This document shows, piece by piece, positions 32,701 through 53,000 of a DNA stretch of 64,000 nt. Origin of the DNA: Parcubacteria group bacterium (GTDB lineage Bacteria; Patescibacteriota; Minisyncoccia; Moranbacterales; UBA9337); NCBI GenBank assembly GCA_041662245.1, contig JBAZSW010000001.1, positions 119,757-183,756 of the forward strand, written 5' to 3'. Below the pieces are notes generated by a model. It ran no database searches. It was not told the DNA's origin and saw only the letters and a program-made list of their open reading frames with translations. The position numbers and the translations under genes are program-made. The first letter of the stretch is position 1. Each line of letters begins with the position of its first letter.

Positions 32701-34931
32701 ATAGTATTTGAAACGGTGGTTGCAAAATCATCGGAAGCATTAAAAGTAACCGTCTCAGTTCCAAACCAACCGTTTTCTGGTATAAACGTTGGCTTATTGT
32801 CACTATCAATTGAAACTGAAATATGGGGACAATTTGTAATATCAACAGCATAGGTTAAATTATCAAGTGAATTTTGATCATGAAAATAATCATCCAAATC
32901 AAATGGTTTAGTATTAGTTTGATTAGTCATCCAAGTTTGATTTGGAATAAAGGAAGGATGATACGTAACTGTTAATTCTGGACGAGTACTCCCACCTGAA
33001 GTAGTTTTTCGAGCACCTGAAAATTTTTTCCAGTTCTCTATAGTATTTTGTTCAGTAGTTGCTTTAATAATTCCTCCATAGTTGCTTCCTGGGTTATCTA
33101 GCCAATATTGTATTAAATTTGTCACATCGAAGTCATACCAAGTATTCGTTGATGAGATTATTTTATTAGCATATTCGGTAAGATCCCAATCGCCTCCCAG
33201 CGCACTCCATTGAATGTCATTGAGTTTTGCCCAAGTCCAGTTTACTTCACCATCTGCCGCAGATTGATCTATATAAGAAGCTTTTCGGTCGGCTGCCCCC
33301 CAATCTTTAGTTAATCTATATAAGGAAGTTGATAAATTACTACCGTTAGCAGCGCCTTCATCATAAAGCGATAATTGGGCTGAATCAACCGTGACAGATT
33401 CTCCCGGAGGCACCCACGCATCAGTATCAAATTTCCAAAGAAGTCGAAATTGTTGTTTTAAATATCGATCACCAGTAAAAAGTTGTTGATATCTATAGGT
33501 TGTGCCTCCTGCGGAAAATCTTGGATCGACGAAAGCGCCCGTAATTGAATTAGCATCGGATCCGTCGTAACTGGCAGTTGGATAAAATCCATTTTTAAAT
33601 TTAACTGTGGCCTTTCTTTCGGGCGGAGAATTAAAATCTGCCGTGTTGTTTATTGTCAAATGGATAGAATTGCTTAGTTGTTTAAATCCATTTTCATCAC
33701 AAGAAAATACAACAGCTTCTTGGCCGATATAATTAGTTGGTTGGGAAAAAGAAACTTCATGCGTAATGGGATCTATAGATACTTCAATGTTCGGGTTATC
33801 TATTGTAGAGGCCGATGGTGTAACACAAGATTGTAAATAATCATCCAAATCAAAAGTGTTTGTTTTTGTCGTATTTACATCCCAAGATTGATCTGAAATC
33901 GTGACTGTGCGATAAACTTTAAGCGTAATTTGATTAATGTCTATGGATTGTCCTCCGGCAGTACCAGTAAAAGTTATTGTTTCTGTCCCATACCAATTTG
34001 ATTCGGGAGAAAAAGTGACAACATGTGTTGTTGGGTTAATTGAAGTAGTTATGTGTGTCGGTGTGTCAGAACTTTTAATAGCATAAGTAAAAGTATCTCC
34101 ATCAGCGTCATAAAAGTAATTATCCAGATCAATAGTATTTAATGGGGAGCTATTCCAAGCCCATTCTATGTTGGGAATGATTGAAGGTTGCGCTACAACT
34201 GTTAATTTAGGAACATAAATCGTGGGCTGAATAACTGTTCGAAATAATTTAAGATTATTGCTTGCAGGAGATTCTGTATCGGGCTTGATAATTATTCCAT
34301 AATTTTCGGAAGGATGATTCGCCCAATATTGAACGGCATTGATCACATTAAAATTAAAAATTCCAACACCCGTGAGTGTTTTAGAATCTTCGGCTGTTAC
34401 ATTGTAATCGCCACCGCCAGTTCCCCAGTTTATTGTGCCGTATTTTGCTGAATTCCAACACACTTTTTCTGGTTGGGCAAGGGCGTCTCCAACAGCAAAA
34501 TTAACACCATAAGTTTTGTAGGGTCCCCAATCAGTTGTAATGCGATAGGCTGAAACTGGAAGTGCTCCTGGATTAATATCTGTATCTACATACATCTGAA
34601 GATTGGCCGATACTACAGTGGGATTTCCTAGTATATAATCTGAAAAATTATCAAATTTAACAAGGGTTCTATGATTTTCTCCGTTATATCCGATGTAGGC
34701 GCGTTGGTAAGTAAAGTTTGCATGCCCAGTGCTATCAGCAATGGAATTTGAATATCCCCCTTCATAACTTGTAGTGGGATAAATTTTATCTTGTAAAACT
34801 ATCGTCTGTTGTAATATTGGAGCGACAGCAACACAAGTAAGTGGAGATAAAAATAAAAAAGCTATCAGTAGAATAATTTTGTTTGTTAAAATGAATTTGG
34901 CAAATTTTAATTGCCGAAGAAGGAATTGCAT
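29775..34931 (-). CDS. Giant secreted/cell-surface protein (1718 aa) with C-terminal dockerin-like calcium-binding repeats
   Basis: N-terminal signal/TM. Repeated Ig-like 'NxTxxFDLDDYF' modules. The C-terminus DLNGDGKTNIYDYAIFVGNFG ... DLNSDNTVNLSDVLLFIQNFG matches a dockerin type I duplicated F-hand motif. Confidence 0.6.
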   Translation of the reverse strand: MQFLLRQLKFAKFILTNKIILLIAFLFLSPLTCVAVAPILQQTIVLQDKIYPTTSYEGGYSNSIADSTGHANFTYQRAYIGYNGENHRTLVKFDNFSDYILGNPTVVSANLQMYVDTDINPGALPVSAYRITTDWGPYKTYGVNFAVGDALAQPEKVCWNSAKYGTINWGTGGGDYNVTAEDSKTLTGVGIFNFNVINAVQYWANHPSENYGIIIKPDTESPASNNLKLFRTVIQPTIYVPKLTVVAQPSIIPNIEWAWNSSPLNTIDLDNYFYDADGDTFTYAIKSSDTPTHITTSINPTTHVVTFSPESNWYGTETITFTGTAGGQSIDINQITLKVYRTVTISDQSWDVNTTKTNTFDLDDYLQSCVTPSASTIDNPNIEVSIDPITHEVSFSQPTNYIGQEAVVFSCDENGFKQLSNSIHLTINNTADFNSPPERKATVKFKNGFYPTASYDGSDANSITGAFVDPRFSAGGTTYRYQQLFTGDRYLKQQFRLLWKFDTDAWVPPGESVTVDSAQLSLYDEGAANGSNLSTSLYRLTKDWGAADRKASYIDQSAADGEVNWTWAKLNDIQWSALGGDWDLTEYANKIISSTNTWYDFDVTNLIQYWLDNPGSNYGGIIKATTEQNTIENWKKFSGARKTTSGGSTRPELTVTYHPSFIPNQTWMTNQTNTKPFDLDDYFHDQNSLDNLTYAVDITNCPHISVSIDSDNKPTFIPENGWFGTETVTFNASDDFATTVSNTIILKVVNYISIPNQRWNEGNNKTNAFDLDDYFSNSSGMTFTISNDDHPNIVVDINSNTHIVSFSQNPSWHGSEKVTFYTNNGSGGYQQSFPVILTVDKPSFQPIVNTHPRIHMTPDNITALKTKATTQMPNTYNALYANVYSASANISSIEDIRDYVTLCAFRYLSGDGDQWADMAMAQVNNKLANAITAQNSPNTGYAAVGMETYALAYDYFYDRLTPIERQNLIDRINSNADGVKNDMEVLTDMQNYGTQSWTGIAVAALATYGDNPRAVELLDWAEGIAQDGYTGQKGYFNFKSSLDVEDGALAFETRTYARRPLQHLCRYASAWNTATNGAVDEFADDKLLHQFETSGYWIMYMTTPDNLVIPRGEANYYNIMSLEMSSMAMLEGHYKNGWFKSWIDSQYTVDGSGNPTWSNYLRYPNNQLLIYQLLWYDPTVTNLPLNTAPKYKKMGPDIVARTGWTNNDTVVHMFAPDFEWNFHNALESGSFYIWKNGHPLANVSAYYDYGNSEGSLYNFSWTTRTVSRNNMLILDPDGGTWPNFPEGQYVNQSGGPVNDGGQRFNFTTADPPTSSMGRANAKAFSGYEAVNDVRNIGKQLTRGELLAYDDSKDNYLFASMDLHKAYDCYPAWSTYSPNNNIAQRLNSYKRDYLWLNDKYLLVYDRMDAINGNDQKSWLLHTGTYNKLIDPPVVTGQPQSTDGTWSLDEGTLDEGISTSSDTSELYADQGTARIYDKILLPISDYKVRRIGGNGYQAWVEGRGNYNFIRPMSQQPNDIPSGWRFEVRPNIGNNKDNILNVLYPTSTSDTMPDTSTIVGTNCVGAYIDDSTKPTVVIFTDVAGLGYSLSYADNNNSHHIITGLQEGTYTVTVAGNSSTVSTTANGVLEFDSTGGAVTIERNGGTTGAENASDWSNWPAWPAISPITPSSDLNGDGKTNIYDYAIFVGNFGKTGTGIAGDLNSDNTVNLSDVLLFIQNFGQ

Positions 34932-41797: not shown

Positions 41798-43600
41798 ATG
41801 AATCAAAAAAAATTAATTTTGATAGTTAGCTTTTTTTTAGCGTTGGCAGTTATTTTTGGAATAACTATTTTTAAGAAAGAAAGATTAAATAATTACCAAG
41901 GAAAAGATGATGCTAAAAGTAGCGCTATTAATAAAAAAATAGATAATAAAAACAACAAAGAAGTAGCTTTAGCCAAATGCAAAGATGGTTGGGAAAGCTA
42001 CAATAATGATGTTTTGGGAATAGGTTTTTGTTACCTCGATTCATGGGGCAAACCGACTATTGAACCCTTAGAAAATTTAACGTTATTAGATGGAGCATTG
42101 ATTGAATATTCTGGCGATGAACACAATGCTTATAATAATTCTTTATTTATTAAATTTAAGGAAAACGAAAAAGAACCCGATGAGAAGGGGAATAATTTGG
42201 AATTGCGCATCTTTAACGAAAATTACAAAGGAGAATACTACCCTAATTCAGAAGCTTATGAAAAAGGTTATATTGATAATGTTGCTGATTTAAAGGCAAA
42301 TAAAAATATTTGTGATTATCAAGTTGAGTTTACTCAACTATGGAAGCAACAGGGCAGAATGACTGAATTTTGGAGTCAATGTAATAAAGGAATAAAAGAC
42401 AGAATTATTATTAATGAAGAATATTTTGATAAAAATATTTATTCCTATAACTTAGAATCTTTGGCCTATCTGAAACTTCAAAATAATTTTTTTGATAATG
42501 TTTTGATCAAAAAAAACTATTTAGCTGTTTCGCAAGTAGAAAAAAATATAAGCAATTTTTCTCAAATATTTGAAACAAAGAATTATCCTAGTACAGTAGA
42601 TAATTCAAAAATAATTTCTCAGGAAAAATATGCCCAACAGAGAGATGATTTTGGTAATTTTGTAAGTAGTATTTATAGCTATAAGCCGATTATTCCTGAG
42701 AAAAAAGATTTTCAAATAACTAATGGTGAAGATAACAAAATAACCCTTATTCGAAAATATTATTGGCTTATCGAAAATCAAAATTTGGAGGAAGCGTATA
42801 AAATGAATAATCGAATTAATATTTCTTTGGATGATTTTAAAGCTTTATATCAAAAAACTAGGTTTGTTCAGGCGAGAGATTTCCAAAAAGTCAATGATAA
42901 CACTTATAAATTTTTTTTAGATTATCAAGATCATAATAATTCTAAGAAAATTTATCGTTTAACTTTAAGAATAATAAATGAAGATAAGCTAGAAATTATC
43001 ACTACTGAAGAAATAGTTTCTGAGATGGTAAAAAGTGGTGATTTTACAGCTTACTCCAAAAAGCAAAATGGAAAAAGTTTTTTAATCTTGGGAAGATATG
43101 GCATAGAGACCGTAATTGATCAGGGAGAAGCTGACTATAGAGAAGATTATTCAAATTTGGAAAACGTTAAATTTTTTAGGGATATTAAATTTTCTGATAA
43201 TGGAAATTATCTAATCTATACAATGTCTGGTTGGGAGTGGTCGATTATCTATATTTATGATATCAACAATGATAAGGAAGCGCTAAGTTTTGATAGTGGA
43301 ACTTATGGATTTTCGGCTGACGAAAAAAGTTTTTTTGTTTGCACTAATGCTGGGATGGTTACTAATCCGGGAGGAATTATCTATAACACTCCTGATTTTA
43401 AAAAACAATTTGAATTATTTGGTTCAGACAAAAATTTAGCCACAGAAGTTCGTTGTAATTATGATAAGGATAAAAACGAGTTAACTTTTATTTATGATAA
43501 GGATTGTTCTGATTTTGATGACAAAAATTGCAAGAAAAACGAAGTTGTCTACTCTTTTAATGAAAATAAAATGATTAGCAGCAAAATTTCTAGTAATTGA
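41798..43600 (+). CDS. Hypothetical secreted/membrane-anchored protein (600 aa)
   Basis: N-terminal TM/signal LILIVSFFLALAVIFGITIF. No motif recognised. Confidence 0.45.
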   Translation: MNQKKLILIVSFFLALAVIFGITIFKKERLNNYQGKDDAKSSAINKKIDNKNNKEVALAKCKDGWESYNNDVLGIGFCYLDSWGKPTIEPLENLTLLDGALIEYSGDEHNAYNNSLFIKFKENEKEPDEKGNNLELRIFNENYKGEYYPNSEAYEKGYIDNVADLKANKNICDYQVEFTQLWKQQGRMTEFWSQCNKGIKDRIIINEEYFDKNIYSYNLESLAYLKLQNNFFDNVLIKKNYLAVSQVEKNISNFSQIFETKNYPSTVDNSKIISQEKYAQQRDDFGNFVSSIYSYKPIIPEKKDFQITNGEDNKITLIRKYYWLIENQNLEEAYKMNNRINISLDDFKALYQKTRFVQARDFQKVNDNTYKFFLDYQDHNNSKKIYRLTLRIINEDKLEIITTEEIVSEMVKSGDFTAYSKKQNGKSFLILGRYGIETVIDQGEADYREDYSNLENVKFFRDIKFSDNGNYLIYTMSGWEWSIIYIYDINNDKEALSFDSGTYGFSADEKSFFVCTNAGMVTNPGGIIYNTPDFKKQFELFGSDKNLATEVRCNYDKDKNELTFIYDKDCSDFDDKNCKKNEVVYSFNENKMISSKISSN

Positions 43601-44253: not shown

Positions 44254-44352
44254 AACGATTTCAAATTGTTAAATTATCAACCATCACAATTAATCCTTTT
44301 TAAAATAGGGATATTTGTGCTATAATATGGGCATAATTAAAAAATAAATCTT

Positions 44353-46077
44353 ATGATAAAAACAACAAAAAAAGTTATTAAAAAAATTCCCGGAGAATTG
44401 CATCATCATGCTATGCTGGCAATTTTTTTTGGATTATTGGCGGTAAGTTTTTCTCTTTTGGCAATGAAAAATTTGGCTAATGCCCAAGATTCGACAATAA
44501 CTGACAGAGTGGCGTGTTCTTATATTACAGGAGATTGGAGTGATTGTGATTCAACTGGAACCCAGACCAGAACAATTACTAGAACTCCTGATAATTGTTA
44601 TGATACTAATACTATTCCATCAAAAACGCAAAGCTGTACATATGCTGTTCCTTGCTCTTTTTCTTATAATGCTTGGGGAACATGTGATTCGACAGGCTAC
44701 CAAACCAGAAGTGTTTCGTCCAGAACTCCTGAAGGTTGCTATGATTCAGTTAACCCTATTTTAAAACAGCCATGCACCTATTCTGTGACTGTTGCTAGTG
44801 CAGTAAAAATTTCTTGTTCCTATAACTTAAGTAGTTGGGGTGAGTGTAAATCTTCTGGCAAGCAAAGTAGGACAATAATTTCTAAAACTCCCGTAGGATG
44901 TTTTGAAACCGATTTACCAAAATTGGAGCGTTTATGTGATTATGGCTCAGCTAGTAGAACAGTGGGTACTCAAGAAAACAATAATGTTACTCCTTATTTC
45001 AATTTCTTAAATTTAAGCGGAGGAGAAGTTGTTAGCGGTGAAATAAAAATTCAGGGAACTGTGGATGTTGCTAATAGTATTGAATTTTATTTGTTACCAG
45101 CGGAATCCAATAATCCGAAATATCTTGGTTTAGCCAAATATATTGGACAAAAAACTTGGGAATATACTCTAGATTCAAAGAGTCAGCCTAATGGATCTTT
45201 TCATATTTATACTAAAATTAAAAATGCTTATGGTGTTTACGATGGGGAAAAGAGGATGTTGATTATTTTAAATGCTAATGAAGAAATGCAAAATGCAGGA
45301 AACAAATCAGAAGAAACAGGCAATGGAGCTAATAATAGAATAAGCAATGAGTGGCAAAATAAATATTTTAAATCGGATAATTGCTTAGATCAAAGTATTT
45401 GTGGAGGAGAAGTTGATCCTGATAGGGACGGGGTGAGTAATAATGAAGAATATCGTTTAGGTTTAAATCCGACTAATCCAGATACTGATCAAGATGGATT
45501 TTTAGATGGCGACGAAATAAAAAATGGTTTTGATCCACTTAAATCTTCTCCTGGAGATAAAAGTGATAAAATGGTTTTTGAGAGTCCTAAAGAAAAAGGA
45601 GAAATTAAAAAAGATGAATATAAAGTTGAAACCGTAGAGCTTGCTAATTTTCAAGAAGGTAAGAAACTTAAATTAACAGGAAGGGCTTTGCCTAACACTT
45701 ATGTAACTATTTATATTTACAGTGATCCAATCGTTTTAACAGTCAAAACTGATGCAGATGGTAACTGGTCTTATGTTCTAGATAAAGATTTAGAGGATGG
45801 TAATCATCAGGTATATGTAGCAGTAACAGATAATACCGGAAAGATAACTGCTAAAAGTGAACCATTGGCTTTCGTAAAAACCGCTGAGGCCGCTAGCATT
45901 GTTTCGCCAGCAGAAGCTTCCGCAGGAGATCGGGCGGTTTCACCAACTAAATCTTGGTCAAATAATGGCTTGTATTTCTTTATTACTTTAGGCTTAGGGG
46001 CGTTAGCTTTAGCGGTGGCTGTTTTAGGACTAATTAAACATAACTTAAATAAAAAAGAGGAAAATAGACTAGTTTAA
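44353..46077 (+). CDS. Membrane-anchored surface protein with three thrombospondin type-1-like repeats, TSP type-3-like calcium-binding repeats and Ig-like domain; C-terminal TM anchor
   Basis: Three repeats of C.Y...W..C.S.G.Q.R........C[YF][DE] (for example ACSYITGDWSDCDSTGTQTRTITRTPDNCYD). Ca-binding DPDRDGVSNNEEYRLGLNPTNPDTDQDGFLDGDE. C-terminal TM LYFFITLGLGALALAVAVLGLI. Confidence 0.55.
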   Translation: MIKTTKKVIKKIPGELHHHAMLAIFFGLLAVSFSLLAMKNLANAQDSTITDRVACSYITGDWSDCDSTGTQTRTITRTPDNCYDTNTIPSKTQSCTYAVPCSFSYNAWGTCDSTGYQTRSVSSRTPEGCYDSVNPILKQPCTYSVTVASAVKISCSYNLSSWGECKSSGKQSRTIISKTPVGCFETDLPKLERLCDYGSASRTVGTQENNNVTPYFNFLNLSGGEVVSGEIKIQGTVDVANSIEFYLLPAESNNPKYLGLAKYIGQKTWEYTLDSKSQPNGSFHIYTKIKNAYGVYDGEKRMLIILNANEEMQNAGNKSEETGNGANNRISNEWQNKYFKSDNCLDQSICGGEVDPDRDGVSNNEEYRLGLNPTNPDTDQDGFLDGDEIKNGFDPLKSSPGDKSDKMVFESPKEKGEIKKDEYKVETVELANFQEGKKLKLTGRALPNTYVTIYIYSDPIVLTVKTDADGNWSYVLDKDLEDGNHQVYVAVTDNTGKITAKSEPLAFVKTAEAASIVSPAEASAGDRAVSPTKSWSNNGLYFFITLGLGALALAVAVLGLIKHNLNKKEENRLV

Positions 46078-46089
46078 GTTTTTAAATTT

Positions 46090-47439
46090 ATGAAGAATCT
46101 TTTTGCTAGAGCTATCTCTTTTATCAAAGAAAATCCAAGCGTTATGTATTCTTTGGTTTTAGTTCTTTTGGTGCCGATAGCTTTTTTTATTAACACTTAT
46201 CTTGTTAATTTGAGTTATGAAGAGGACCTTAACAAGATAACTCAGAGAAAAGCGATTTTAATCGAGGATATTTTAGAAAATGTCATAGCCAAAGAAGCAA
46301 ACAACGCTGATAAAATTCAAGAAATCATTGGCAATATTATTTCAGAAGATAGTGAGGTAGTCTCTTTAACTGTGAGTAATTTTCAAAATCAAACCAATGA
46401 TTTTAAAATAGTAGCAGCTAGCGACAAAAATTTGGTTGGTAATATTCAACCTGACAATATGCAAAACATGATTGCTTGGACAAATCCTGAAGGGATAGCT
46501 TTTTTAGATGAGAAAAATAATGAAAGATTTTGGAAGGTTACAAAAATACTTAAAAGCAATTCGGAAGAAAAAATCGGATTAATTTCGATGTCTTTATCTC
46601 TAGCCAGTACTGATTTTTTAATCAATAGAACTATCAGAAATTCTTATTGGGTTTTATTTGTTACTATAATTATAGTTTTACTTTTTGTCTCTAACCAAGC
46701 GCGCCTATTTGGGTATGCTTTGATGGTTACCAAGTTGAAAGAGATTGATAAAATGAAAGATATGTTCATCTCTATGGCCAGTCATGAATTACGTTCTCCT
46801 TTGGGAGCGATGAAAGGTTATGTCGATTTCTTAAAAGATAAAAAAGAAATTTTAGCAGATGAAGATGCCAACCATTATGTGTCTAATATCTCTCTCTCCA
46901 TTGAACGTCTCAATGGATTAGTCGCTGATATGCTGGAGGTATCTAGGATTGAAGGTAATCGCATGCCGATGGAGATTTCTGAAATTAATCCTAATAAAGT
47001 AATTTCTGAATCTGTTGAAGAAATAAAATCACAAGCTATTCAAAAAGGCTTGAAATTAATTTATACTCCTCCCATTGATGATAAATTGATTATTTTAGCG
47101 GATGTTAATCGATTGAAACAAGTATTGATAAATTTAATTGGGAATTCTATTAAGTATACACCTGCCGGTTCAGTAACTGTTAGTGTGGTGGCAAAAAATA
47201 ACGAGTTGGGGATAACTATCGCTGATACAGGAATTGGAATTTCTTCAGAGGATCAGGCCAACTTGTTTAATAAATTTCATAGAATTCAAAATGAAAAAAC
47301 AAAGAACATTATTGGAACTGGACTGGGCCTTTGGATAACTATGGAAATAGTCAAAAGAATGAATGGAAGGATTACGATTGAAAGTATTGAAGGCGTAGGT
47401 TCTCATTTTACTGTTTATCTTCCTGTGGTTAAAAAATAA
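46090..47439 (+). CDS. Sensor histidine kinase (HisKA + HATPase_c)
   Basis: H-box MASHELRSPLGAMKGY. N-box LINLIGNSIKYT. G-boxes IADTGIGIS and GTGLGLWI. Two N-terminal TM helices. Confidence 0.85.
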   Translation: MKNLFARAISFIKENPSVMYSLVLVLLVPIAFFINTYLVNLSYEEDLNKITQRKAILIEDILENVIAKEANNADKIQEIIGNIISEDSEVVSLTVSNFQNQTNDFKIVAASDKNLVGNIQPDNMQNMIAWTNPEGIAFLDEKNNERFWKVTKILKSNSEEKIGLISMSLSLASTDFLINRTIRNSYWVLFVTIIIVLLFVSNQARLFGYALMVTKLKEIDKMKDMFISMASHELRSPLGAMKGYVDFLKDKKEILADEDANHYVSNISLSIERLNGLVADMLEVSRIEGNRMPMEISEINPNKVISESVEEIKSQAIQKGLKLIYTPPIDDKLIILADVNRLKQVLINLIGNSIKYTPAGSVTVSVVAKNNELGITIADTGIGISSEDQANLFNKFHRIQNEKTKNIIGTGLGLWITMEIVKRMNGRITIESIEGVGSHFTVYLPVVKK

Positions 47440-47512: not shown

Positions 47513-50230
47513 ATGAACGAAAGTAATTTTTATAATTTTTCTTTAAAAGAAATTTCCAGAGAATTTAAAACTTCTTACATTACAGGTCTTTCTGAAAATG
47601 AAGTTTTACTACGTTTGAAGGAATATGGCAAAAATCAGATTAAGAAAAAACAGGATTGGCGTTGGATTAAGTTAATCCTTAATCAATTTAATGACGCTTT
47701 GGTATGGATTCTTTTGGTGGCTGCGGGCCTAGCTTGTATTTTTCAGGAGTATCGAGATGTGATAATTATTTTGATTATTGTGGGGATTAATGCCACTATC
47801 GGATTTTTACAGGAATTTAAAGCAGAAAGAATTTTAGATAGTATTAAAAAATTAACCACTGATCAGACCCAAGTTATTCGTGATAGCAAAAAACAAGAAG
47901 TAGATGCTCAAATGATTACTCTAGGAGATCTAATTTTTGTTTCTGCAGGGGATCGGGTTCCGGCAGACGGATATATCACCGAAAGCTATGATTTAAAAGT
48001 GAATAGTTTTATTTTTACTGGTGAGTCTAAACCAGAAAATAAATCATCCAAAATTATTGAGGAAAAAAATATTCCCATTGCCGATATTGATAATATGCTT
48101 TTTATGGGAGAAACCATTTCAACGGGAGAGGGAAAATTCATTGTAACCGGAATCGGAATTAATACTGAACTAGGTAAAATTGCTCATTTGACCAGTGAAG
48201 TTCAAGAAGTACTCACTCCAATGCAAAAACAAATGCGTAAGCTAGGTAAAAATGTTACGATTATGGCTATGACTGTCGGAGTAGTCGTAATGATCACAGG
48301 TCATTTTTTGGGAATGTCGCTTTATCATAATTTTATTTTTGCTCTTGCCTTGGCGGTGTCCGTTGTGCCCGAAGGACTTCCTGCAGCTATTTCAGTGGCC
48401 CTTTCTTTAGGAATGAAGAGATTATTAAAACATAACATTTTAGCTAAAAAATTAAATGCGGTAGAAACTTTAGGTTCAGTCTCGATAATTTGTACAGATA
48501 AAACAGGAACAATTACCAAAAATGAGCTAACAGTAACTCAATTAGTTATTAATAATCAAGAAGTAATATTAAGCGGAACAGGCTATTCTCCTGAGGGACA
48601 TTTTTTTATAGATAAGGAAGCAGTCAATCCAGTAGAAATAAAAAATTTAGAGTTACTTTTTCGTATTGGCACGCTTTGCAATGATGCAAATATTATTTTT
48701 AAAGATGGAATTAGAACAGTTGTAGGTGACCCAACTGAGGGAGCAATTATTGTGGCGGGAGAGAAATTTAATCCCAAGGAAAATTATTATGAAATCGGGG
48801 AAACGAAAATTACTGAAAACCCTTTTTCTTCTAATAGAATGAGAATGAGCGTGGTCTACAAAAATGCGGAAACATTGTCCTTGGTAAAAGGTTCCCCTGA
48901 TGTAATGATTGATTTATGCGATTTTATTAGGATAGATGATGAAATTTTACCGTTTGATAAAGAGGATAAAGAGAAAATAGGAAAAATGTATAATACCATG
49001 TCTGCTCAAGCATTACGAGTGTTAGCTTTCGCCTATCGAAATCTAGAAGATGTTACTAGTGAAAAATATTTAGAAGAATCAGAAAAAAACTTAACTTGGG
49101 TAGGAATGATGGCTATGATTGATCCTCCTCGCCAAGATGTGGCTGTAGCTATCGATGAATGCAAAAAATTGGGAATTAAAGTTATTATGATTACGGGAGA
49201 TTATGAAATTACCGCTAGCGCTATTGCAAAGAATATCAATCTAATTGAAGAGGGGGGAAAGAATGAAATTATTAATGGTAAACAACTAGTTGAATTGAGC
49301 GATGATGAAATCTACCATAAAATTATTCAAAAAAATATTGTTTTTGCGCGTATTGCTCCAGAACAGAAACTGAGAATCGCTAAAATATTGAAGAAAAACA
49401 ATCAAATAATCGCCATGACAGGAGACGGAGTCAATGATGCTCCTGCTCTTAAAAAAGCTGATGTGGGAGTAGCAATGGGGATAATAGGGACAGATGTTTC
49501 TAAAGAGGCTTCAGATATGATTTTATTAGATGATAATTTTGCTTCAATCGTGAGAGGAATCAAGGAGGGAAGAACTATCTATGGAAATCTAAAAAAGTTT
49601 GTGCATTATGTTTTTACTTCTAACGCAAGTGAACTATTAACGGTAATTTTTGGGGTAATCTTGCATATCCCTTCGCCTATTATGGCAGTTCAGATTTTAG
49701 CTATTGATTTAGCTACGGATGTTTTTCCTTCCTTTTCATTGAGTTTAGAGCCGGCAGAAAAATGGGTAGATAAAACAACAAAAAATTCTAGTGGATCAAT
49801 ATTGAATTGGAAAGGTTTTAAAAGAATAATTTATTTGGGAATAATTATGGCAGGGGGAGGGATAATAGCTTTCTTATGGTCAATGTTACGGGGAGGATGG
49901 CATTGGGGAAAGATAATAGATGAAAACAGCGCACTTTATATTCGGTCTACTACAGCAACCTATGCTGTACTTGCCATGACACAGATGGCTAACCTTTTAC
50001 AATCTAGAAGTGAAAAATCAACTCCTTTTGAATTGGGATTTTTCAAAAACAAATATGCTATTGGATCTATCTTTATTTCTTTAGGAATTTTAATCTCTTT
50101 TATGTATCTTTCATTTTTTCAAAAATATTTGCGAATGAGTCCTATTCAGTGGCAAGATTGGCTAATAGTGATAACGGTGACTCTAGTGGTATATTTTTTT
50201 GAGAGTGCGAGAAAGAAACGTCAGAAATAG
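47513..50230 (+). CDS. P-type cation-transporting ATPase (type II, Ca2+/Mg2+-like)
   Basis: Phosphorylation motif ICTDKTGTIT. PEGLP. Hinge MTGDGVNDAPALKKADVGVAMG. About 10 TM helices. Confidence 0.9.
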   Translation: MNESNFYNFSLKEISREFKTSYITGLSENEVLLRLKEYGKNQIKKKQDWRWIKLILNQFNDALVWILLVAAGLACIFQEYRDVIIILIIVGINATIGFLQEFKAERILDSIKKLTTDQTQVIRDSKKQEVDAQMITLGDLIFVSAGDRVPADGYITESYDLKVNSFIFTGESKPENKSSKIIEEKNIPIADIDNMLFMGETISTGEGKFIVTGIGINTELGKIAHLTSEVQEVLTPMQKQMRKLGKNVTIMAMTVGVVVMITGHFLGMSLYHNFIFALALAVSVVPEGLPAAISVALSLGMKRLLKHNILAKKLNAVETLGSVSIICTDKTGTITKNELTVTQLVINNQEVILSGTGYSPEGHFFIDKEAVNPVEIKNLELLFRIGTLCNDANIIFKDGIRTVVGDPTEGAIIVAGEKFNPKENYYEIGETKITENPFSSNRMRMSVVYKNAETLSLVKGSPDVMIDLCDFIRIDDEILPFDKEDKEKIGKMYNTMSAQALRVLAFAYRNLEDVTSEKYLEESEKNLTWVGMMAMIDPPRQDVAVAIDECKKLGIKVIMITGDYEITASAIAKNINLIEEGGKNEIINGKQLVELSDDEIYHKIIQKNIVFARIAPEQKLRIAKILKKNNQIIAMTGDGVNDAPALKKADVGVAMGIIGTDVSKEASDMILLDDNFASIVRGIKEGRTIYGNLKKFVHYVFTSNASELLTVIFGVILHIPSPIMAVQILAIDLATDVFPSFSLSLEPAEKWVDKTTKNSSGSILNWKGFKRIIYLGIIMAGGGIIAFLWSMLRGGWHWGKIIDENSALYIRSTTATYAVLAMTQMANLLQSRSEKSTPFELGFFKNKYAIGSIFISLGILISFMYLSFFQKYLRMSPIQWQDWLIVITVTLVVYFFESARKKRQK

Positions 50231-50325
50231 AATTTGTTATAATAATTAATAAGCAATTTAAGATAAGTTTTTGATGACTAAGAATTGAAATTATTGAAGA
50301 ATTATTAATATGTAAGTTTGAAGAT

Positions 50326-51234
50326 ATGCGTAAAAGAATGTTCAAATTAGGAATTTTTATTGGAGTAATAATTATTTCATTGGGGGTGATTTTATTTTTT
50401 TTAAAGAAGATAAATGCTCCTGCTACGATGAATAATAAGATTAATGTAACTACTAGTTTTTATCCTCTTTATTTTTTAACTTCTCAAATTGGAGGAGACT
50501 TGGTTAATGTAAATAATTTGACGCCTGCCGGTACGGAACCGCACGATTATGAGTTAACAGCTCGAGATATTGCTAAAATTAAAAAGAGCAAGTTATTAAT
50601 CTTGAATGGGGGAGGTTTAGAGATATGGGCTGAGAGTGTTAAGAAAAATATAAGTTTTAAAAATCCGTTAGTTGTAAATTTAGGAGAAGGTTTGGTTAGT
50701 CAAGAAGATCCTCATATTTGGCTTAGCCCGACTTTGGCGATAAAGATGGCGGAGAAGATAAGCAAAGGTTTGATTGAAGTTGATTCCCAAAATAAAAGTT
50801 ATTATGAGTCTAATTTCAATATTTTAAAAACCAAGCTGGTGAATTTGGATAGTGCCTATAAAGCAAGCTTGGCAGATTGTCAGAGAAAAGATATAATAAC
50901 TTCTCATAGTGCTTTTATCTATTTAGCAAAGGATTATGGGCTGAGACAAATTTCGATTGCAGGTCTTTCCCCTGAAGAAGAACCATCCAGTAAACAATTA
51001 GCTGACGTGACTCAATTTGCTAGGGATAATAATGTTAAGTACATATTTTTTGAGAGTTTGGTCAGTCCAAAATTATCACAAACTATTGCCAAAGAGATTG
51101 GAGCTAAAATTCTAATCTTAAACCCAATTGAAGGATTGACTGAAAAAGAACTAAATCAGGGAAGAGATTATTTAACTGAAATGAATACTAATTTGGAGAA
51201 TTTAAAAATAGCGCTGGAATGCAAAAATAATTAA
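50326..51234 (+). CDS. Metal (Zn/Mn) ABC transporter substrate-binding protein, ZnuA/TroA family
   Basis: Signal/TM N-terminus. Conserved ITSHSAFIYLAKDYGL block of the TroA family. It is followed by ATPase and permease genes. Confidence 0.75.
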   Translation: MRKRMFKLGIFIGVIIISLGVILFFLKKINAPATMNNKINVTTSFYPLYFLTSQIGGDLVNVNNLTPAGTEPHDYELTARDIAKIKKSKLLILNGGGLEIWAESVKKNISFKNPLVVNLGEGLVSQEDPHIWLSPTLAIKMAEKISKGLIEVDSQNKSYYESNFNILKTKLVNLDSAYKASLADCQRKDIITSHSAFIYLAKDYGLRQISIAGLSPEEEPSSKQLADVTQFARDNNVKYIFFESLVSPKLSQTIAKEIGAKILILNPIEGLTEKELNQGRDYLTEMNTNLENLKIALECKNN

Positions 51235-51392
51235 AAGTTAAAAATGAAAAATTAAAAGTTACAATTCAAAGTCCAAAATTATATAAAATAATTTAGAAAA
51301 ACTTTAAATTGTTAGCTGCAACTTTTAACTTTGCACTTTGAATTTTTAACTTGCAAAAAATTTGACTAGGTAAATTATGAGGATTAAATTTT

Positions 51393-52187
51393 ATGAAAGA
51401 GACAGTAAATAAATTGGAAACCGTTGATCATACTAAAAACATTATTGAGATTGATAATGTTTCTTTTTCCTATGATAATCAAAATAATGCCTTAGAAAAT
51501 GTTACCTTACAAATTCATCAAGGTGATTATATCGGTTTGGTGGGGCCTAATGGAAGCGGAAAAACAACTCTAATAAAACTTATTGTCGGTTTGCTTAGTC
51601 CAAAAAATGGAACAATAAAAATATTTGGAAAAAATATTAATGATTTTAGAGATTGGCATAAGATAGGTTATGTTCCGCAGACATTAGCTAACTTTGATAA
51701 AAATTTTCCGGTCACTGTGGCTGAAGTAGTATTGATGGGCAGGTATTCAAAAAAGGGTCTGCTGACAAGAGTTAACGAAGAAGATAAAAAATTAGTGCAA
51801 GAGTCTTTGAAAAAGGTTGAGATGGTAAAATATGGGAATCGTTTAATCGGGGAACTTTCGGGCGGTCAGATGCAAAGAGTTTTTATCGCAAGAGCTTTGG
51901 CCAGCCAGCCAGAAGTAATTTTCTTAGATGAGCCTACGGCCGGAATAGATGAGCAAAGTCAAAAAGAATTTTATAAATTATTGCAAAAATTGAATAAAAA
52001 GATGGGAATTACTCTAGTGATAGTTTCGCACGATATCCAAAAAATGACTCAGGAGGTAATGCATATGGTGTGTGTTAATCGGAGCCTTACTTGTCATACT
52101 ACGCCCGAAGAATTTATTCGAGAAAGTCAGTCTTCTAATATTTTTGGTCAGGATGTAAAAATTATAACGCATCATAATCATAAATAA
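51393..52187 (+). CDS. Metal ABC transporter ATP-binding protein (ZnuC-like)
   Basis: Walker A GLVGPNGSGKTTL. ABC signature LSGGQMQRVFIARAL. Walker B IFLDEPTAGID. Confidence 0.85.
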   Translation: MKETVNKLETVDHTKNIIEIDNVSFSYDNQNNALENVTLQIHQGDYIGLVGPNGSGKTTLIKLIVGLLSPKNGTIKIFGKNINDFRDWHKIGYVPQTLANFDKNFPVTVAEVVLMGRYSKKGLLTRVNEEDKKLVQESLKKVEMVKYGNRLIGELSGGQMQRVFIARALASQPEVIFLDEPTAGIDEQSQKEFYKLLQKLNKKMGITLVIVSHDIQKMTQEVMHMVCVNRSLTCHTTPEEFIRESQSSNIFGQDVKIITHHNHK

Positions 52188-52193
52188 TTTTTT

Positions 52194-53000
52194 ATGGAAA
52201 TTTTTCAATACGATTTTATTTTAAGGGGAATTATAGCGGGGATAGTTATCGGAGCTATTGCTCCTCTGATTGGTATTTTCCTTGTTTTAAAAAGGTACTC
52301 TTTAATTGCGGATACGCTTGCGCATGTTTCTTTGGCAGGAGTGGCGCTAGGGTTACTTTTAGGGATTAATCCGATTTTTACCGCTCTAGGAAGTTCAATG
52401 GTGGCTTCAGTGGCGATTGAAAAATTAAGAACCAGTAAAAAAGTTTATGGAGAATCAGCCTTGGCTCTCTTTCTTTCAGGAAGTTTAGCCTTGGCGATTG
52501 TGATTTTAAGTTTGGCGCGTGGGTTTAATACCAATTTATTTAGTTATCTTTTTGGAAGCATTGTTACGGTTAGCATAGGGGATATTTATTTAATTTTGAT
52601 AGTGGCAGTAATTGCGGTTGTTACTTTAGCTATTTTTTATAAAGAATTGATTTATGCTACCTTTGATGAAGATTCTGCCAAAGTTAGCGGTATTTCGACT
52701 CAAAAAATAAATATTATTTTGATTGTGTTAGCTTCGCTAGTAGTATCATTGGCCATTCCTATCGTGGGAGTCTTATTGATTTCAGCGCTGATTGTTATTC
52801 CTGTGGTTACAGCTTTGCAACTTAAAAAAGATTTTCGGGGAACAATTATTTGGGCAGAATTTTTTTCTATTTTTTCGGTAGTGGGAGGAATTTTTGGAGC
52901 TTTTTATCTAAACCTCTCTACCGGAGGAACAATTGTATTAATTATGCTTGCCATCTTTCTCTTGGTTTTTATGACTAAAAAATACTCAACATTAAATTAA
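52194..53000 (+). CDS. Metal ABC transporter permease (ZnuB-like)
   Basis: 268 aa, about 8 TM helices. Position and size are typical of the ZnuB/MntB family. Confidence 0.75.
   Translation: MEIFQYDFILRGIIAGIVIGAIAPLIGIFLVLKRYSLIADTLAHVSLAGVALGLLLGINPIFTALGSSMVASVAIEKLRTSKKVYGESALALFLSGSLALAIVILSLARGFNTNLFSYLFGSIVTVSIGDIYLILIVAVIAVVTLAIFYKELIYATFDEDSAKVSGISTQKINIILIVLASLVVSLAIPIVGVLLISALIVIPVVTALQLKKDFRGTIIWAEFFSIFSVVGGIFGAFYLNLSTGGTIVLIMLAIFLLVFMTKKYSTLN

What the first reader, a model, noticed from the sequence alone, without database searches (positions are those of the whole stretch)
44353..46077. Bacterial protein combining thrombospondin type-1-like and type-3-like repeats
There are three tandem approximately 45-aa repeats with the pattern C.Y...W..C.S.G.Q.R........C[YF][DE] (the W..C.S.G.Q.R core resembles TSP1 WSxCSxxCGxGxxxR). 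They are followed by DPDRDGVSNNEEYRLGLNPTNPDTDQDGFLDGDE (TSP type-3-like Ca-binding repeats), an Ig-like domain and a C-terminal TM anchor. This is a eukaryote-like adhesion architecture on a bacterial cell-surface protein.
Basis: partly seen in the sequence, partly recalled or inferred. Interest (0 to 1): 0.5.

Follow-up and report, generated by a model that had tools for sequence, protein, structure and literature searches.

The report
Bacterial TSR-fold surface protein paired with kinase
A membrane-anchored surface protein of a tiny uncultured (Parcubacteria) bacterium carries three small disulfide-rich modules with the fold of animal thrombospondin type-1 / midkine-pleiotrophin domains, a module that is widespread but unannotated in bacteria, and its gene almost always sits directly in front of a sensor kinase gene, which suggests a role in sensing as well as adhesion.

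Summary
ORF 44353-46077 (+, 574 aa) encodes, in order:
- a signal/anchor helix;
- three 41-aa four-Cys repeats;
- an unannotated beta-sandwich;
- two invariant DxDxDG Ca-binding loops (bacterial TSP3 type);
- a Big_13 Ig-like domain;
- a C-terminal TM helix.

The repeats belong to the thrombospondin type-1 repeat (TSR) superfamily by sequence and predicted fold. Their closest subfamily is the pleiotrophin/midkine C-domain, not canonical six-Cys TSP_1. Evidence:
- PF01091 scores just above its cutoff on the whole protein, and 100 of 141 family units match it.
- A family profile hits only PTN, MK and the MIC2 TSR among PDB sequences.

Individual scores are marginal; it is their specificity that persuades.

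The module is widespread: at least 2,019 protein clusters, in several CPR lineages and in cultured Anaeromyxobacter, all annotated as hypothetical, EF-hand or cytochrome c.

New finding: the gene is followed directly by an orthologous orphan-type histidine kinase in 68 of 73 species-representative loci, even where the TSR repeats are absent.

Best reading: a Ca-stabilised surface co-sensor or adhesin whose variable distal TSR array binds a ligand and which is coupled to the kinase. The function is inferred, not shown.

The parts
44299..44326 (+). Promoter-like site (TTTAAA-16-TATAAT with extended -10 TG), about 27 nt upstream of the ATG
   Evidence: Best-scoring site in the region (10/12). It is a consensus match only: the number of sites in the region is not above shuffled expectation.
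44353..46077 (+). ORF of 574 aa: the TSR-repeat / Ig-like / TSP3_bac / Big_13 membrane-anchored surface protein (identical to P0001, NCBI 'MAG: Ig-like domain-containing protein [Parcubacteria group bacterium]')
44404..44478 (+). N-terminal hydrophobic helix (aa 18-42), followed by ANA|QD: a signal peptide or signal anchor
   Evidence: Hydropathy scan and a helix at 16-41 in the model. Cleavage is inferred.
44515..44637 (+). TSR-like unit 1 (aa 55-95), CSYITGDWSDCDSTGTQTRTITRTPDNCYDTNTIPSKTQSC
   Evidence: 54.1 bits against the independent family profile. PTN_MK_C E 0.0046 and TSP1_ADAMTS E 0.11.
44653..44775 (+). TSR-like unit 2 (aa 101-141)
   Evidence: 62.6 bits. PTN_MK_C E 0.13.
44815..44937 (+). 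TSR-like unit 3 (aa 155-195)
44980..45267 (+). Membrane-distal beta-sandwich (aa ~210-305); no Pfam match; strongly conserved in the family
   Evidence: pLDDT 90-96 and all-beta in the model. No Pfam hit. Conserved motifs appear in alignment A2. Together with Big_13 it matches tandem BIg arrays of SiiE, MpIBP and Bap.
45382..45552 (+). Cys344-Cys350 loop plus two DxDxDGxxDxxE Ca-binding loops (bacterial TSP3 repeats; aa 355-366 and 377-388)
   Evidence: TSP3_bac 17.7 bits on the whole protein and 24.3 bits on a fragment, against a cutoff of 25. D355/357/359/377/379/381/385 are invariant in 63 homologues. Ca binding is inferred.
45610..45882 (+). Big_13 bacterial Ig-like domain (aa ~420-510), the most conserved part of the family
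   Evidence: PF19077 E 9.9e-11, 42.5 bits against a cutoff of 27. pLDDT 84-96. Dense run of invariant columns.
45964..46047 (+). C-terminal transmembrane helix (aa 538-565, invariant G559), followed by the basic tail KHNLNKKEENRLV
46090..47439 (+). Partner sensor histidine kinase (449 aa): TM1 at aa 15-43, extracytoplasmic loop of ~137 aa, TM2 at aa 181-208, HisKA, HATPase_c. It starts 12 nt after the stop codon of the surface-protein gene.
   Evidence: Pfam HisKA 1.6e-15 and HATPase_c 4e-27. Topology. No terminator-like site in the gap. An orthologue is directly downstream in 68 of 73 GTDB loci and in all 8 encoding-contig look-ups.

Best explanation
The gene encodes a type-I, C-terminally membrane-anchored cell-surface protein of a Parcubacteria/Moranbacteria-type (CPR) bacterium.

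From the membrane outwards it has a TM helix, a Big_13 Ig-like domain, two Ca-binding TSP3-type loops, a second beta-sandwich and, at the distal tip, three tandem four-Cys modules. These modules are bacterial members of the thrombospondin type-1 repeat (TSR) superfamily. They are three-stranded and carry a Y-x-Y-x-x-W aromatic ladder on strand A that packs against a near-invariant Arg on strand B. By homology with the PTN/MK C-domain they are probably pinned by two disulfides, C1-C3 and C2-C4.

The protein is co-transcribed with, and most likely works together with, the orphan-type sensor histidine kinase encoded 12 nt downstream. The conserved membrane-proximal core (beta-sandwich, Ca loops, Big_13, TM) is proposed to contact the kinase. 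The variable TSR array (0 to about 11 copies among homologues) is proposed to be the ligand-binding or reach-determining antenna, for example for glycans or proteins on a partner cell, so that binding is reported to the kinase.

Shown here: the architecture, the TSR-type sequence and predicted fold, the wide bacterial distribution of the module, and the gene pairing.

Inferred: the disulfide pattern, Ca binding, physical coupling to the kinase, and the ligand.

Sub-confidences: architecture 0.9; TSR-superfamily membership of the repeats 0.8; functional coupling to the kinase 0.55; co-sensor mechanism as described 0.4.
For: Sequence.
- PF01091 (PTN_MK_C) scores 25.8 bits against a cutoff of 25.3, in three stretches.
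- Each unit has PTN_MK_C as its best Pfam hit.
- Of 141 diverse family units, 100 match PTN_MK_C, 21 TSP1_ADAMTS, 10 TSP_1 and 6 TSP1_CCN. Multi-repeat relatives reach PTN_MK_C E 7.6e-14.
- The family profile finds only five PDB sequences at E<=10: two pleiotrophin, two midkine and the Toxoplasma MIC2 TSR. In those alignments C-x-Y-x-Y-S-x-W-x-x-C...G-x-Q-x-R lines up with MIC2 C-T-Y-V-W-S-D-W-N-K-C...G-Y-Q-A-R, and the invariant Arg lines up with MK R81 of heparin-binding cluster 1 (PMC3267162).

Fold.
- The AlphaFold2 model of unit 3 has pLDDT 92.5.
- The Foldseek list is nearly all TSR proteins: 13 of 18 hits (C6-C9, Unc5A, THSD7A, F-spondin TSR, MIC2, properdin); the other five are Elapor1 chains and one RNA polymerase II chain.

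Contact evidence independent of the model. Extra Cys occur only as pairs, at column 8 (the strand-A Tyr) with column 22 (the Arg) or column 24.

Family. 88 of 120 homologues carry 1 to about 11 units. The exhaustive search finds 2,019 clusters at E<=1e-3.

Coupling to the kinase.
- A kinase orthologue lies directly downstream on the same strand in all 8 encoding-contig loci and in 68 of 73 GTDB species-representative loci, at 27-73% identity over nearly its full length.
- Other neighbours are not conserved: the ATPase recurs in 3 of 80 loci and the HD protein in 1 of 80.
- Homologues without TSR units (P0047, P0105) are still kinase-linked.
- The gap is 12 nt with no terminator-like site.
- The membrane-proximal half and the TM (G559) hold most of the invariant columns.
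Against: - The Pfam match on the window's own units covers only about the first 23 residues.
- The structure is a prediction. Its coordinates could not be inspected, so the disulfide pattern is unverified.
- The units have 4 Cys rather than 6, one invariant Arg rather than an RxR ladder, and roughly neutral charge (mean +0.46 against +4 for the PTN C-domain core). PTN-like polyanion binding therefore cannot be assumed.
- Gene adjacency does not prove a physical or signalling link.
- No response regulator lies in the 64-kb window, and only 6 of 87 loci have one in the flanks, so the output of the pathway is unknown.
- Five loci lack the kinase.
Confidence: 0.6

Rival explanations
1. It is simply an adhesin. 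For an episymbiotic CPR cell, the TSR array and Ca-rigidified Ig stalk bind a host-cell surface. The kinase next door only regulates its expression, or merely shares an operon, with no physical co-sensing.
For: The two beta-sandwiches resemble BIg arrays of Ca-binding adhesins (SiiE, MpIBP, Bap, a LapA-like extender). NCBIfam gives a weak 'Ca2+-stabilized repeat-containing adhesin' hit. Eukaryotic TSRs and PTN/MK are adhesive or glycan-binding modules (PMC3267162). Variable repeat number is typical of adhesins. The same module occurs in many other extracellular proteins that are not kinase-linked.
Against: Synteny with an orthologous kinase holds in 68 of 73 loci across roughly 27-73% kinase identity, while all other neighbours vary. 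That is tighter than usual for regulator-target pairs. No response regulator is nearby to close a regulatory loop. The most conserved part of the protein is membrane-proximal rather than the presumed binding tip.
Confidence: 0.25
2. The Cys repeats are a convergent bacterial disulfide-rich module that only resembles TSRs. The shared W-x-x-C / G-x-Q-x-R motifs and the three-stranded shape arose independently, and AlphaFold drew a TSR because of the motif.
Confidence: 0.12
3. The TSR array is a passive, rigid, disulfide-stabilised spacer that sets the height of the protein above the membrane or wall. It has no ligand of its own.
For: Copy number varies from 0 to about 11, and Ser/Thr-rich linkers replace the array in some homologues. 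The units are near-neutral with few conserved surface residues beyond the structural core. In cytochrome c fusions the units look like linkers between haem domains.
Against: Q/R/K-x-R and the exposed aromatic ladder are conserved and correspond to the ligand-contacting face of MK (PMC3267162). This reading does not exclude the kinase coupling.
Confidence: 0.1
4. It is a recent horizontal acquisition of a eukaryotic TSR/PTN-MK cassette, that is, host mimicry.
For: The closest named relatives are animal and apicomplexan proteins.
Against: Identity to eukaryotic TSRs is 15-26%. The gene's GC content (0.337) matches the window. There is a bacterial-specific four-Cys consensus in at least 2,019 clusters across several CPR lineages and Myxococcota. 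The repeats within the gene are themselves old.
Confidence: 0.03

Closest known systems
Pleiotrophin/midkine C-terminal domain (Pfam PF01091; PDB 1MKC, 2N6F, 8VOI)
   Same: Four Cys, and the N-terminal motif C-x-Y-x-[YF]-x-x-W-G-x-C followed by [KQ]-x-R on the next strand. Three antiparallel strands. It is the best Pfam and PDB sequence match. The invariant Arg aligns with MK R81 of heparin-binding cluster 1.
   Different: The loop between C2 and C3 is shorter (16-17 against 21 residues). Net charge is near neutral rather than strongly basic. There is no PTN_MK_N partner domain. The units occur as tandem arrays on membrane-anchored bacterial proteins rather than on a secreted metazoan cytokine. 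For the window's units the Pfam alignment covers only about the first third of the model.
Canonical thrombospondin type-1 repeat (Pfam TSP_1 PF00090 and relatives; TSP-1 1LSL, Toxoplasma MIC2 TSR 8J64, Sema5A, properdin, C6-C9)
   Different: Four Cys rather than six. Y-x-x-W in place of W-x-x-W. One invariant Arg rather than R-x-R. About 41-47 aa rather than 50-60. PF00090 is not listed for this protein and is matched by only 10 of 141 units, weakly. The host is bacterial.
Bacterial TSP3 repeat (PF18884) / thrombospondin type-3 Ca-binding repeats
   Same: Two DxDxDGxxDxxE loops with invariant Asp residues, preceded by a small Cys loop.
   Different: Only two loops. The score lies just under the Pfam cutoff in this protein. 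No thrombospondin signature domain (EGF-like repeats or C-terminal domain) was detected by Pfam.
Ca-binding BIg adhesins (Salmonella SiiE, Marinomonas MpIBP, Bap, LapA-type extenders)
   Same: Tandem Ig-like beta-sandwiches with Ca-binding sites between them. These are the top structural matches for the full-length model.
   Different: Only two Ig-like domains. The protein is anchored by its own C-terminal TM helix rather than secreted by a type I system. It is tipped by TSR modules and paired with a kinase.
Membrane-anchored accessory proteins of sensor kinases, for example YycH/YycI with WalK (from my own knowledge, not tested here)
   Same: A single-pass membrane protein with an extracytoplasmic beta-rich domain, encoded next to a PhoR/WalK/VicK-class HisKA kinase that has a short extracellular loop.
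   Different: No sequence relation was found. The gene order, C-terminal anchor and domain set differ. No interaction has been demonstrated.

Membership tests
TSR superfamily (fold level) | Small three-stranded antiparallel fold superposable on solved TSRs | tested here: met
TSR superfamily (fold level) | Aromatic (Trp) ladder on strand A stacked against Arg on strand B | tested here: met
   Y6 (90%), Y8 (86%) and W11 (100%) on strand A; Q/R/K20 and R22 (99%) on strand B. These are in register with MIC2 Y-x-W-x-x-W...Q-x-R. Cys pairs replace positions 8+22 or 8+24 in six units.
Canonical TSP_1 (PF00090) | Score above the Pfam gathering threshold | tested here: not met
   PF00090 is not listed for the protein or its units at E<=10. 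Only 10 of 141 family units match it, with best E 0.0024.
Canonical TSP_1 (PF00090) | Six conserved Cys forming three disulfides; W-x-x-W; R-x-R | tested here: not met
   Four invariant Cys, Y-x-x-W and a single invariant Arg.
PTN/MK C-domain (PF01091) | Score above the Pfam gathering threshold | tested here: inconclusive
   On the whole protein the score is 25.8 bits against 25.3, summed over three partial stretches. Single units score 13-18.7 bits. PF01091 is precomputed on P0001 and some homologues but marked 'faint' at the locus.
PTN/MK C-domain (PF01091) | Four Cys forming two disulfides (C1-C3, C2-C4) | not testable with these tools
   The Cys count and order fit (PMC3267162).
PTN/MK C-domain (PF01091) | Basic heparin-binding clusters; pairing with a PTN_MK_N domain in a secreted cytokine | tested here: not met
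   Mean unit charge is +0.46, and -1, 0 and +2 for the window's units. Only the R81 equivalent is conserved. No PTN_MK_N hit.
Bacterial TSP3 repeat (PF18884) | DxDxDGxxDxxE Ca-binding loop; Pfam threshold | tested here: inconclusive
   The motif is present twice with invariant Asp residues. The score is 24.3 bits on a fragment and 17.7 on the whole protein, against a cutoff of 25. Most homologues carry precomputed PF18884.
Big_13 bacterial Ig-like domain (PF19077) | Pfam threshold; beta-sandwich | tested here: met
   42.5 bits against 27. All-beta, with pLDDT 84-96.
Thrombospondin (whole-protein family) | EGF-like repeats, a long type-3 repeat array and the C-terminal thrombospondin domain | tested here: not met
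   None of these domains is detected by Pfam.
Sensor-kinase accessory / co-sensor protein | Conserved genetic linkage with a cognate kinase | tested here: met
   Linked in 68 of 73 loci plus all 8 encoding-contig loci. Other neighbours are not conserved.
Sensor-kinase accessory / co-sensor protein | Physical interaction with the kinase and modulation of its activity | not testable with these tools
   No complex prediction or experiment was available.

The most novel reading that the evidence does not exclude
The TSR/PTN-MK fold, usually treated as a eukaryotic (animal and apicomplexan) adhesion invention, has a large and deep bacterial branch: a four-Cys 'bacterial TSR' present in thousands of surface proteins of CPR bacteria and in myxobacterial cytochromes. 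In Patescibacteria this module forms the variable ligand-binding antenna of a previously unrecognised, dedicated membrane-anchored co-sensor that feeds an orphan histidine kinase, plausibly reporting contact with the host cell in episymbiosis.
Probability: 0.25. Interest if true: 0.8.

Novelty: new variant of a known kind. Interest (0 to 1): 0.6.

Why it matters
TSRs and the related PTN/MK domains are classic extracellular-matrix and host-invasion modules. In the review I read they are discussed as animal domains that apicomplexans acquired laterally (PMC3417536).

A confidently predicted, sequence-supported bacterial branch with at least 2,000 clusters is currently annotated as 'hypothetical', 'Ig-like', 'EF-hand' or 'cytochrome c'. 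It has no curated family of its own in the Pfam or NCBIfam copies searched. Recognising it would change the picture of where this fold comes from, and it would justify a new family model.

Separately, the near-universal pairing of this surface-protein family with an orphan-type kinase gives a concrete, testable handle on how ultra-small, host-dependent CPR bacteria might sense their surroundings. Almost nothing experimental is known about that.

Tried and rejected
- The word-indexed homology search with the repeat region alone found nothing, and the same tool found nothing with the repeat profile. The full-length query was needed.
The full-length alignment was used instead.
- The afdb50 structure library was unavailable.
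- Model coordinates are not exposed to scripts, so the predicted disulfide pairing could not be read. Cys-pair substitution analysis was used as a proxy.
I treat it as uninformative, neither for nor against.
- Idea rejected: the pair belongs to a Ca/cation-homeostasis cluster because a P-type ATPase and ZnuABC follow it in the window. The ATPase recurs in only 3 of 80 loci.
- Idea rejected: a cognate response regulator lies nearby. There is none in the window, and only 6 of 87 loci have one in the flanks.
- Idea rejected: heparin-type polyanion binding as in PTN/MK. The units are near-neutral.
- The kinase could not be placed in a named equivalog. All NCBIfam scores are far below their cutoffs, so it is a generic PhoR/WalK/VicK-class HisKA kinase.
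- Literature searches for TSR or PTN-MK domains in CPR bacteria or prokaryotes, and for the kinase pairing, found nothing relevant.
Full report
**1. What is there.** The window has about 32% GC, and almost all genes lie on the + strand. ORF 44353-46077 (+) encodes a 574-aa protein. It is identical to a database entry that NCBI names 'MAG: Ig-like domain-containing protein [Parcubacteria group bacterium]', found on a 26-kb contig and on a 217-kb contig.

Sequence, Pfam and a full-length AlphaFold2 model (mean pLDDT 81.8) give this layout:
- aa 18-42: an N-terminal hydrophobic helix followed by ANA|QD.
- aa 55-95, 101-141, 155-195: three 41-aa four-Cys units.
- aa ~210-305: a confident beta-sandwich (pLDDT 90-96) with no Pfam match.
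- aa 344-400: a C344-C350 loop and two DxDxDGxxDxxE loops, with every Asp invariant in 63 homologues. TSP3_bac scores 24.3 bits on a fragment against a cutoff of 25.
- aa 437-507: Big_13, E 1e-10.
- aa 538-565: a C-terminal TM helix followed by a basic tail.

**2. Are the repeats real?** Yes. A profile built only from units of other proteins (each under 62% identical to the window's units) scores the three units at 54-65 bits, and no other ORF in the window matches. The units are 32-41% identical to each other as protein and about 50% as DNA, so they are old duplications.

Among the 120 best full-length homologues, 88 carry 1 to about 11 such units. The 277 distinct units give the consensus C-S-Y-[ST]-Y-S-D-W-[GS]-x-C-x-S-x-G-K-Q-T-R-T-V-x-S-K-S-P-x-G-C-x-E-x(4-5)-P-x-x-L-x-Q-S-C-T-Y. 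The four Cys, the Trp and one Pro are invariant, and the Arg is 99% conserved.

**3. What the repeats are.** Pfam does not list TSP_1 (PF00090) or TSP_3 (PF02412) for this protein. It reports PTN_MK_C (PF01091), the pleiotrophin/midkine C-terminal domain, at 25.8 bits against a cutoff of 25.3, in three stretches. Each unit on its own has PTN_MK_C as its best hit (E 0.003-0.13), and unit 1 also touches TSP1_ADAMTS.

Across 141 diverse units, 100 match PTN_MK_C, 21 TSP1_ADAMTS, 10 TSP_1 and 6 TSP1_CCN. Nothing else recurs more than three times. In multi-repeat relatives the summed PTN_MK_C E-value reaches 7.6e-14.

A profile of the 141 units, searched against all 177,635 distinct PDB sequences, returns only five hits at E<=10: pleiotrophin twice, midkine twice, and the TSR of Toxoplasma MIC2 (E 0.05-3.4). 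PTN and MK are themselves members of the TSR superfamily. Their C-domain has three antiparallel strands and two disulfides, with a conserved Trp and heparin-binding cluster 1 made of K79, R81 and K102 (PMC3267162, citing Kilpelainen et al. 2000).

In the printed alignments the bacterial C-x-Y-x-Y-S-x-W-x-x-C...G-x-Q-x-R is in register with MIC2 C-T-Y-V-W-S-D-W-N-K-C...G-Y-Q-A-R and with MK C-K-Y-K-F-E-N-W-G-A-C...T-K-V-R. The bacterial Y-x-x-W thus occupies the W-x-x-W position, and the near-invariant Arg corresponds to MK R81.

**4. Fold.** AlphaFold2 on unit 3 with the 141-unit alignment gives mean pLDDT 92.5 and a strand pattern of A (residues 5-8), B (19-28) and C (41-43).

One line of evidence does not depend on the model. 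Extra cysteines in family units occur only as pairs, at column 8 (the strand-A Tyr) with column 22 (the Arg) or column 24. There are three units of each kind, from four proteins. This shows that those positions touch, as the aromatic-Arg layering of a TSR requires.

My conclusion is that these are four-Cys bacterial members of the TSR superfamily, nearest the PTN/MK C-domain (confidence about 0.8). They are not members of canonical TSP_1, and they are not orthologues of PTN/MK. The units are near-neutral (mean charge +0.46 against +4 for the PTN core), so PTN-style heparin binding should not be assumed.

**5. Distribution.** An exhaustive HMMER search of 1.84 billion cluster representatives with the unit profile finds 2,019 proteins at E<=1e-3, 875 at E<=1e-10 and 221 at E<=1e-30. 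Their lengths run from 236 to 3,821 aa, and the units sit anywhere along the chain.

Partner domains include Big_13, Big_7, fn3, beta-helix/NosD, SH3_3, cohesin, PG_binding_1, laminin-G, FG-GAP, glycoside hydrolases and cytochrome c. Of the top 142 hits, 27 have CxxCH motifs.

Named carriers are:
- Anaeromyxobacter terrae 'cytochrome c', WP_242343506.1 (4 units);
- Candidatus Dojkabacteria 'EF-hand domain-containing protein' (9 units);
- a 'Candidatus Methylomirabilis sp.' MAG (11 units);
- a 'Pseudobdellovibrio sp.' MAG (13 units).

No Pfam or NCBIfam model in the copies searched describes the module as a bacterial family. No paper in the searchable library links TSR or PTN-MK domains to CPR or other bacteria. 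The one relevant review treats TSP1 as an animal domain that apicomplexans acquired laterally (PMC3417536).

**6. Context and the new observation.** The next gene (46090-47439, starting 12 nt after the stop codon) encodes a 449-aa histidine kinase. It has TM1, an extracytoplasmic loop of about 137 aa, TM2, HisKA and HATPase_c. It belongs to the generic PhoR/WalK/VicK class, and no equivalog cutoff is reached.

The best promoter-like site in the region lies about 27 nt upstream of the ATG at 44353, and there is no terminator-like site before the kinase gene. The overall count of promoter-like sites is no higher than in shuffled sequence.

In all eight loci fetched through identical-protein look-ups, a HisKA/HATPase_c kinase of 439-467 aa follows immediately, while the upstream genes differ. 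These loci include homologues with about 10 units (P0025, P0030) and with none (P0047, P0105).

In 80 loci from species-representative genomes, tblastn with the window's kinase finds a near-full-length orthologue (27-73% identity) on the same strand just after the gene in 68 of the 73 loci that hold enough downstream DNA. My script printed 64 because its filter excluded four overlapping or abutting cases, namely L010, L035, L041 and L084.

The five loci without a kinase include second copies. L026 is linked and L030 is not, on the same contig, and L024 and L027 are two unlinked copies in one MAG.

Other window neighbours are not conserved: the ATPase recurs in 3 of 80 loci, the HD protein and the 600-aa protein in 1 each, and the rest in none. 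No receiver domain is found in the window, and only 6 of 87 loci have one.

Invariant columns concentrate in the Ca loops, Big_13, the juxtamembrane linker and the TM (G559).

The organisms are overwhelmingly Moraniibacteriota, Parcubacteria and other Patescibacteria.

**7. Mechanism.** Shown here: the architecture, the TSR-type modules, and the conserved two-gene unit. What follows is inferred.

The protein is exported and anchored by its C-terminal helix. Ca2+ stiffens the Ig / TSP3-loop / Ig stalk, as in the BIg adhesins SiiE, MpIBP and Bap that the model resembles. The disulfide-bonded TSR array projects furthest from the membrane and provides a variable binding surface, or variable reach. 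The conserved membrane-proximal part, the TM helix, or both, contact the kinase, so that engagement of the antenna modulates signalling.

Rival readings and my confidence in each:
- a plain adhesin whose kinase neighbour is only regulatory (0.25);
- a convergent fold that is not homologous to TSRs (0.12);
- a passive spacer (0.10);
- recent transfer from a eukaryote (0.03). Against this last reading: the GC content matches the window, the bacterial-specific consensus is widespread, and the internal repeats are old.

For novelty I rate it a new variant of a known kind, namely an uncurated bacterial four-Cys branch of the TSR superfamily, plus a previously undescribed conserved pairing of a surface protein with a kinase in CPR bacteria. 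Interest is 0.6.

Noticed in passing
P0174 (WP_242343506.1) and 26 other proteins among P0121-P0262: The same TSR-like module is fused to CxxCH cytochrome c domains in 27 of the top 142 representative hits. One is a lipoprotein-like 'cytochrome c' of cultured Anaeromyxobacter terrae with four units between an N-terminal region and the haem domain. The role of TSR-like units in extracellular or periplasmic cytochromes is unexplained.
   Followed up: partly
window 29775-34931 (-) and 25728-29720 (-): Two adjacent giant ORFs of 1,718 and 1,330 aa. The first has a borderline TGFb_propeptide match (28.9 bits against a cutoff of 25.8, but no single stretch passes) plus Big_9 and DUF4962. The second has no Pfam match. 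The TGF-beta-propeptide hit is another 'eukaryote-like' label and is probably spurious, but it was not examined.
   Followed up: no
L009-L084 (record titles): Many third-party (TPA) MAGs that carry this Patescibacteria-type gene pair are titled 'uncultured Bdellovibrionales bacterium', one 'Gammaproteobacteria' and one 'Desulfurellales'. These look like taxonomic-label or binning artefacts rather than true hosts. This matters for any census of the module.
   Followed up: no
L027, L030, L032, L033 (match to query aa 327-574 only); L022, L024: A paralogous subfamily shares only the TSP3_bac-Big_13-TM half (about 55% identity) and is not followed by the kinase where the downstream DNA could be checked (L027, L030, L032). 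L026 is kinase-linked and L030 is not, on the same contig. L024 and L027 are two unlinked copies in one MAG.
   Followed up: partly
window 1-64000: No response-regulator receiver domain is detectable anywhere in the 64-kb window by tblastn with the CheY and PhoB receivers, so the kinase at 46090-47439 is an orphan at this scale.
   Followed up: partly
window 41798-43600 (+): A 600-aa protein with an N-terminal TM segment, two genes upstream of the surface-protein gene (an HD-domain gene lies between). It has no Pfam match and is conserved as a neighbour in only 1 of 80 loci (L043).
   Followed up: partly
window 47513-53000 (+): Downstream of the kinase lie a P-type cation ATPase (with Cation_ATPase_N and C domains) and a ZnuA / ABC ATPase / ABC-3 metal-uptake cassette, then a Metallophos protein and a PilZ-domain protein. 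A link to cation sensing was considered, but the ATPase neighbour recurs in only 3 of 80 loci.
   Followed up: yes
L002 9251-11020; L004 7895-9019: In two of the eight encoding-contig loci a PMT_2 (family-39-like) glycosyltransferase gene follows the kinase. This could point to glycosylation of the Ser/Thr-rich surface protein.
   Followed up: no
window 6148-8634 (+): An 828-aa protein with a TrwB/HerA-type coupling-protein ATPase domain, which may belong to a type IV secretion or competence system. It is unrelated to the finding.
   Followed up: no
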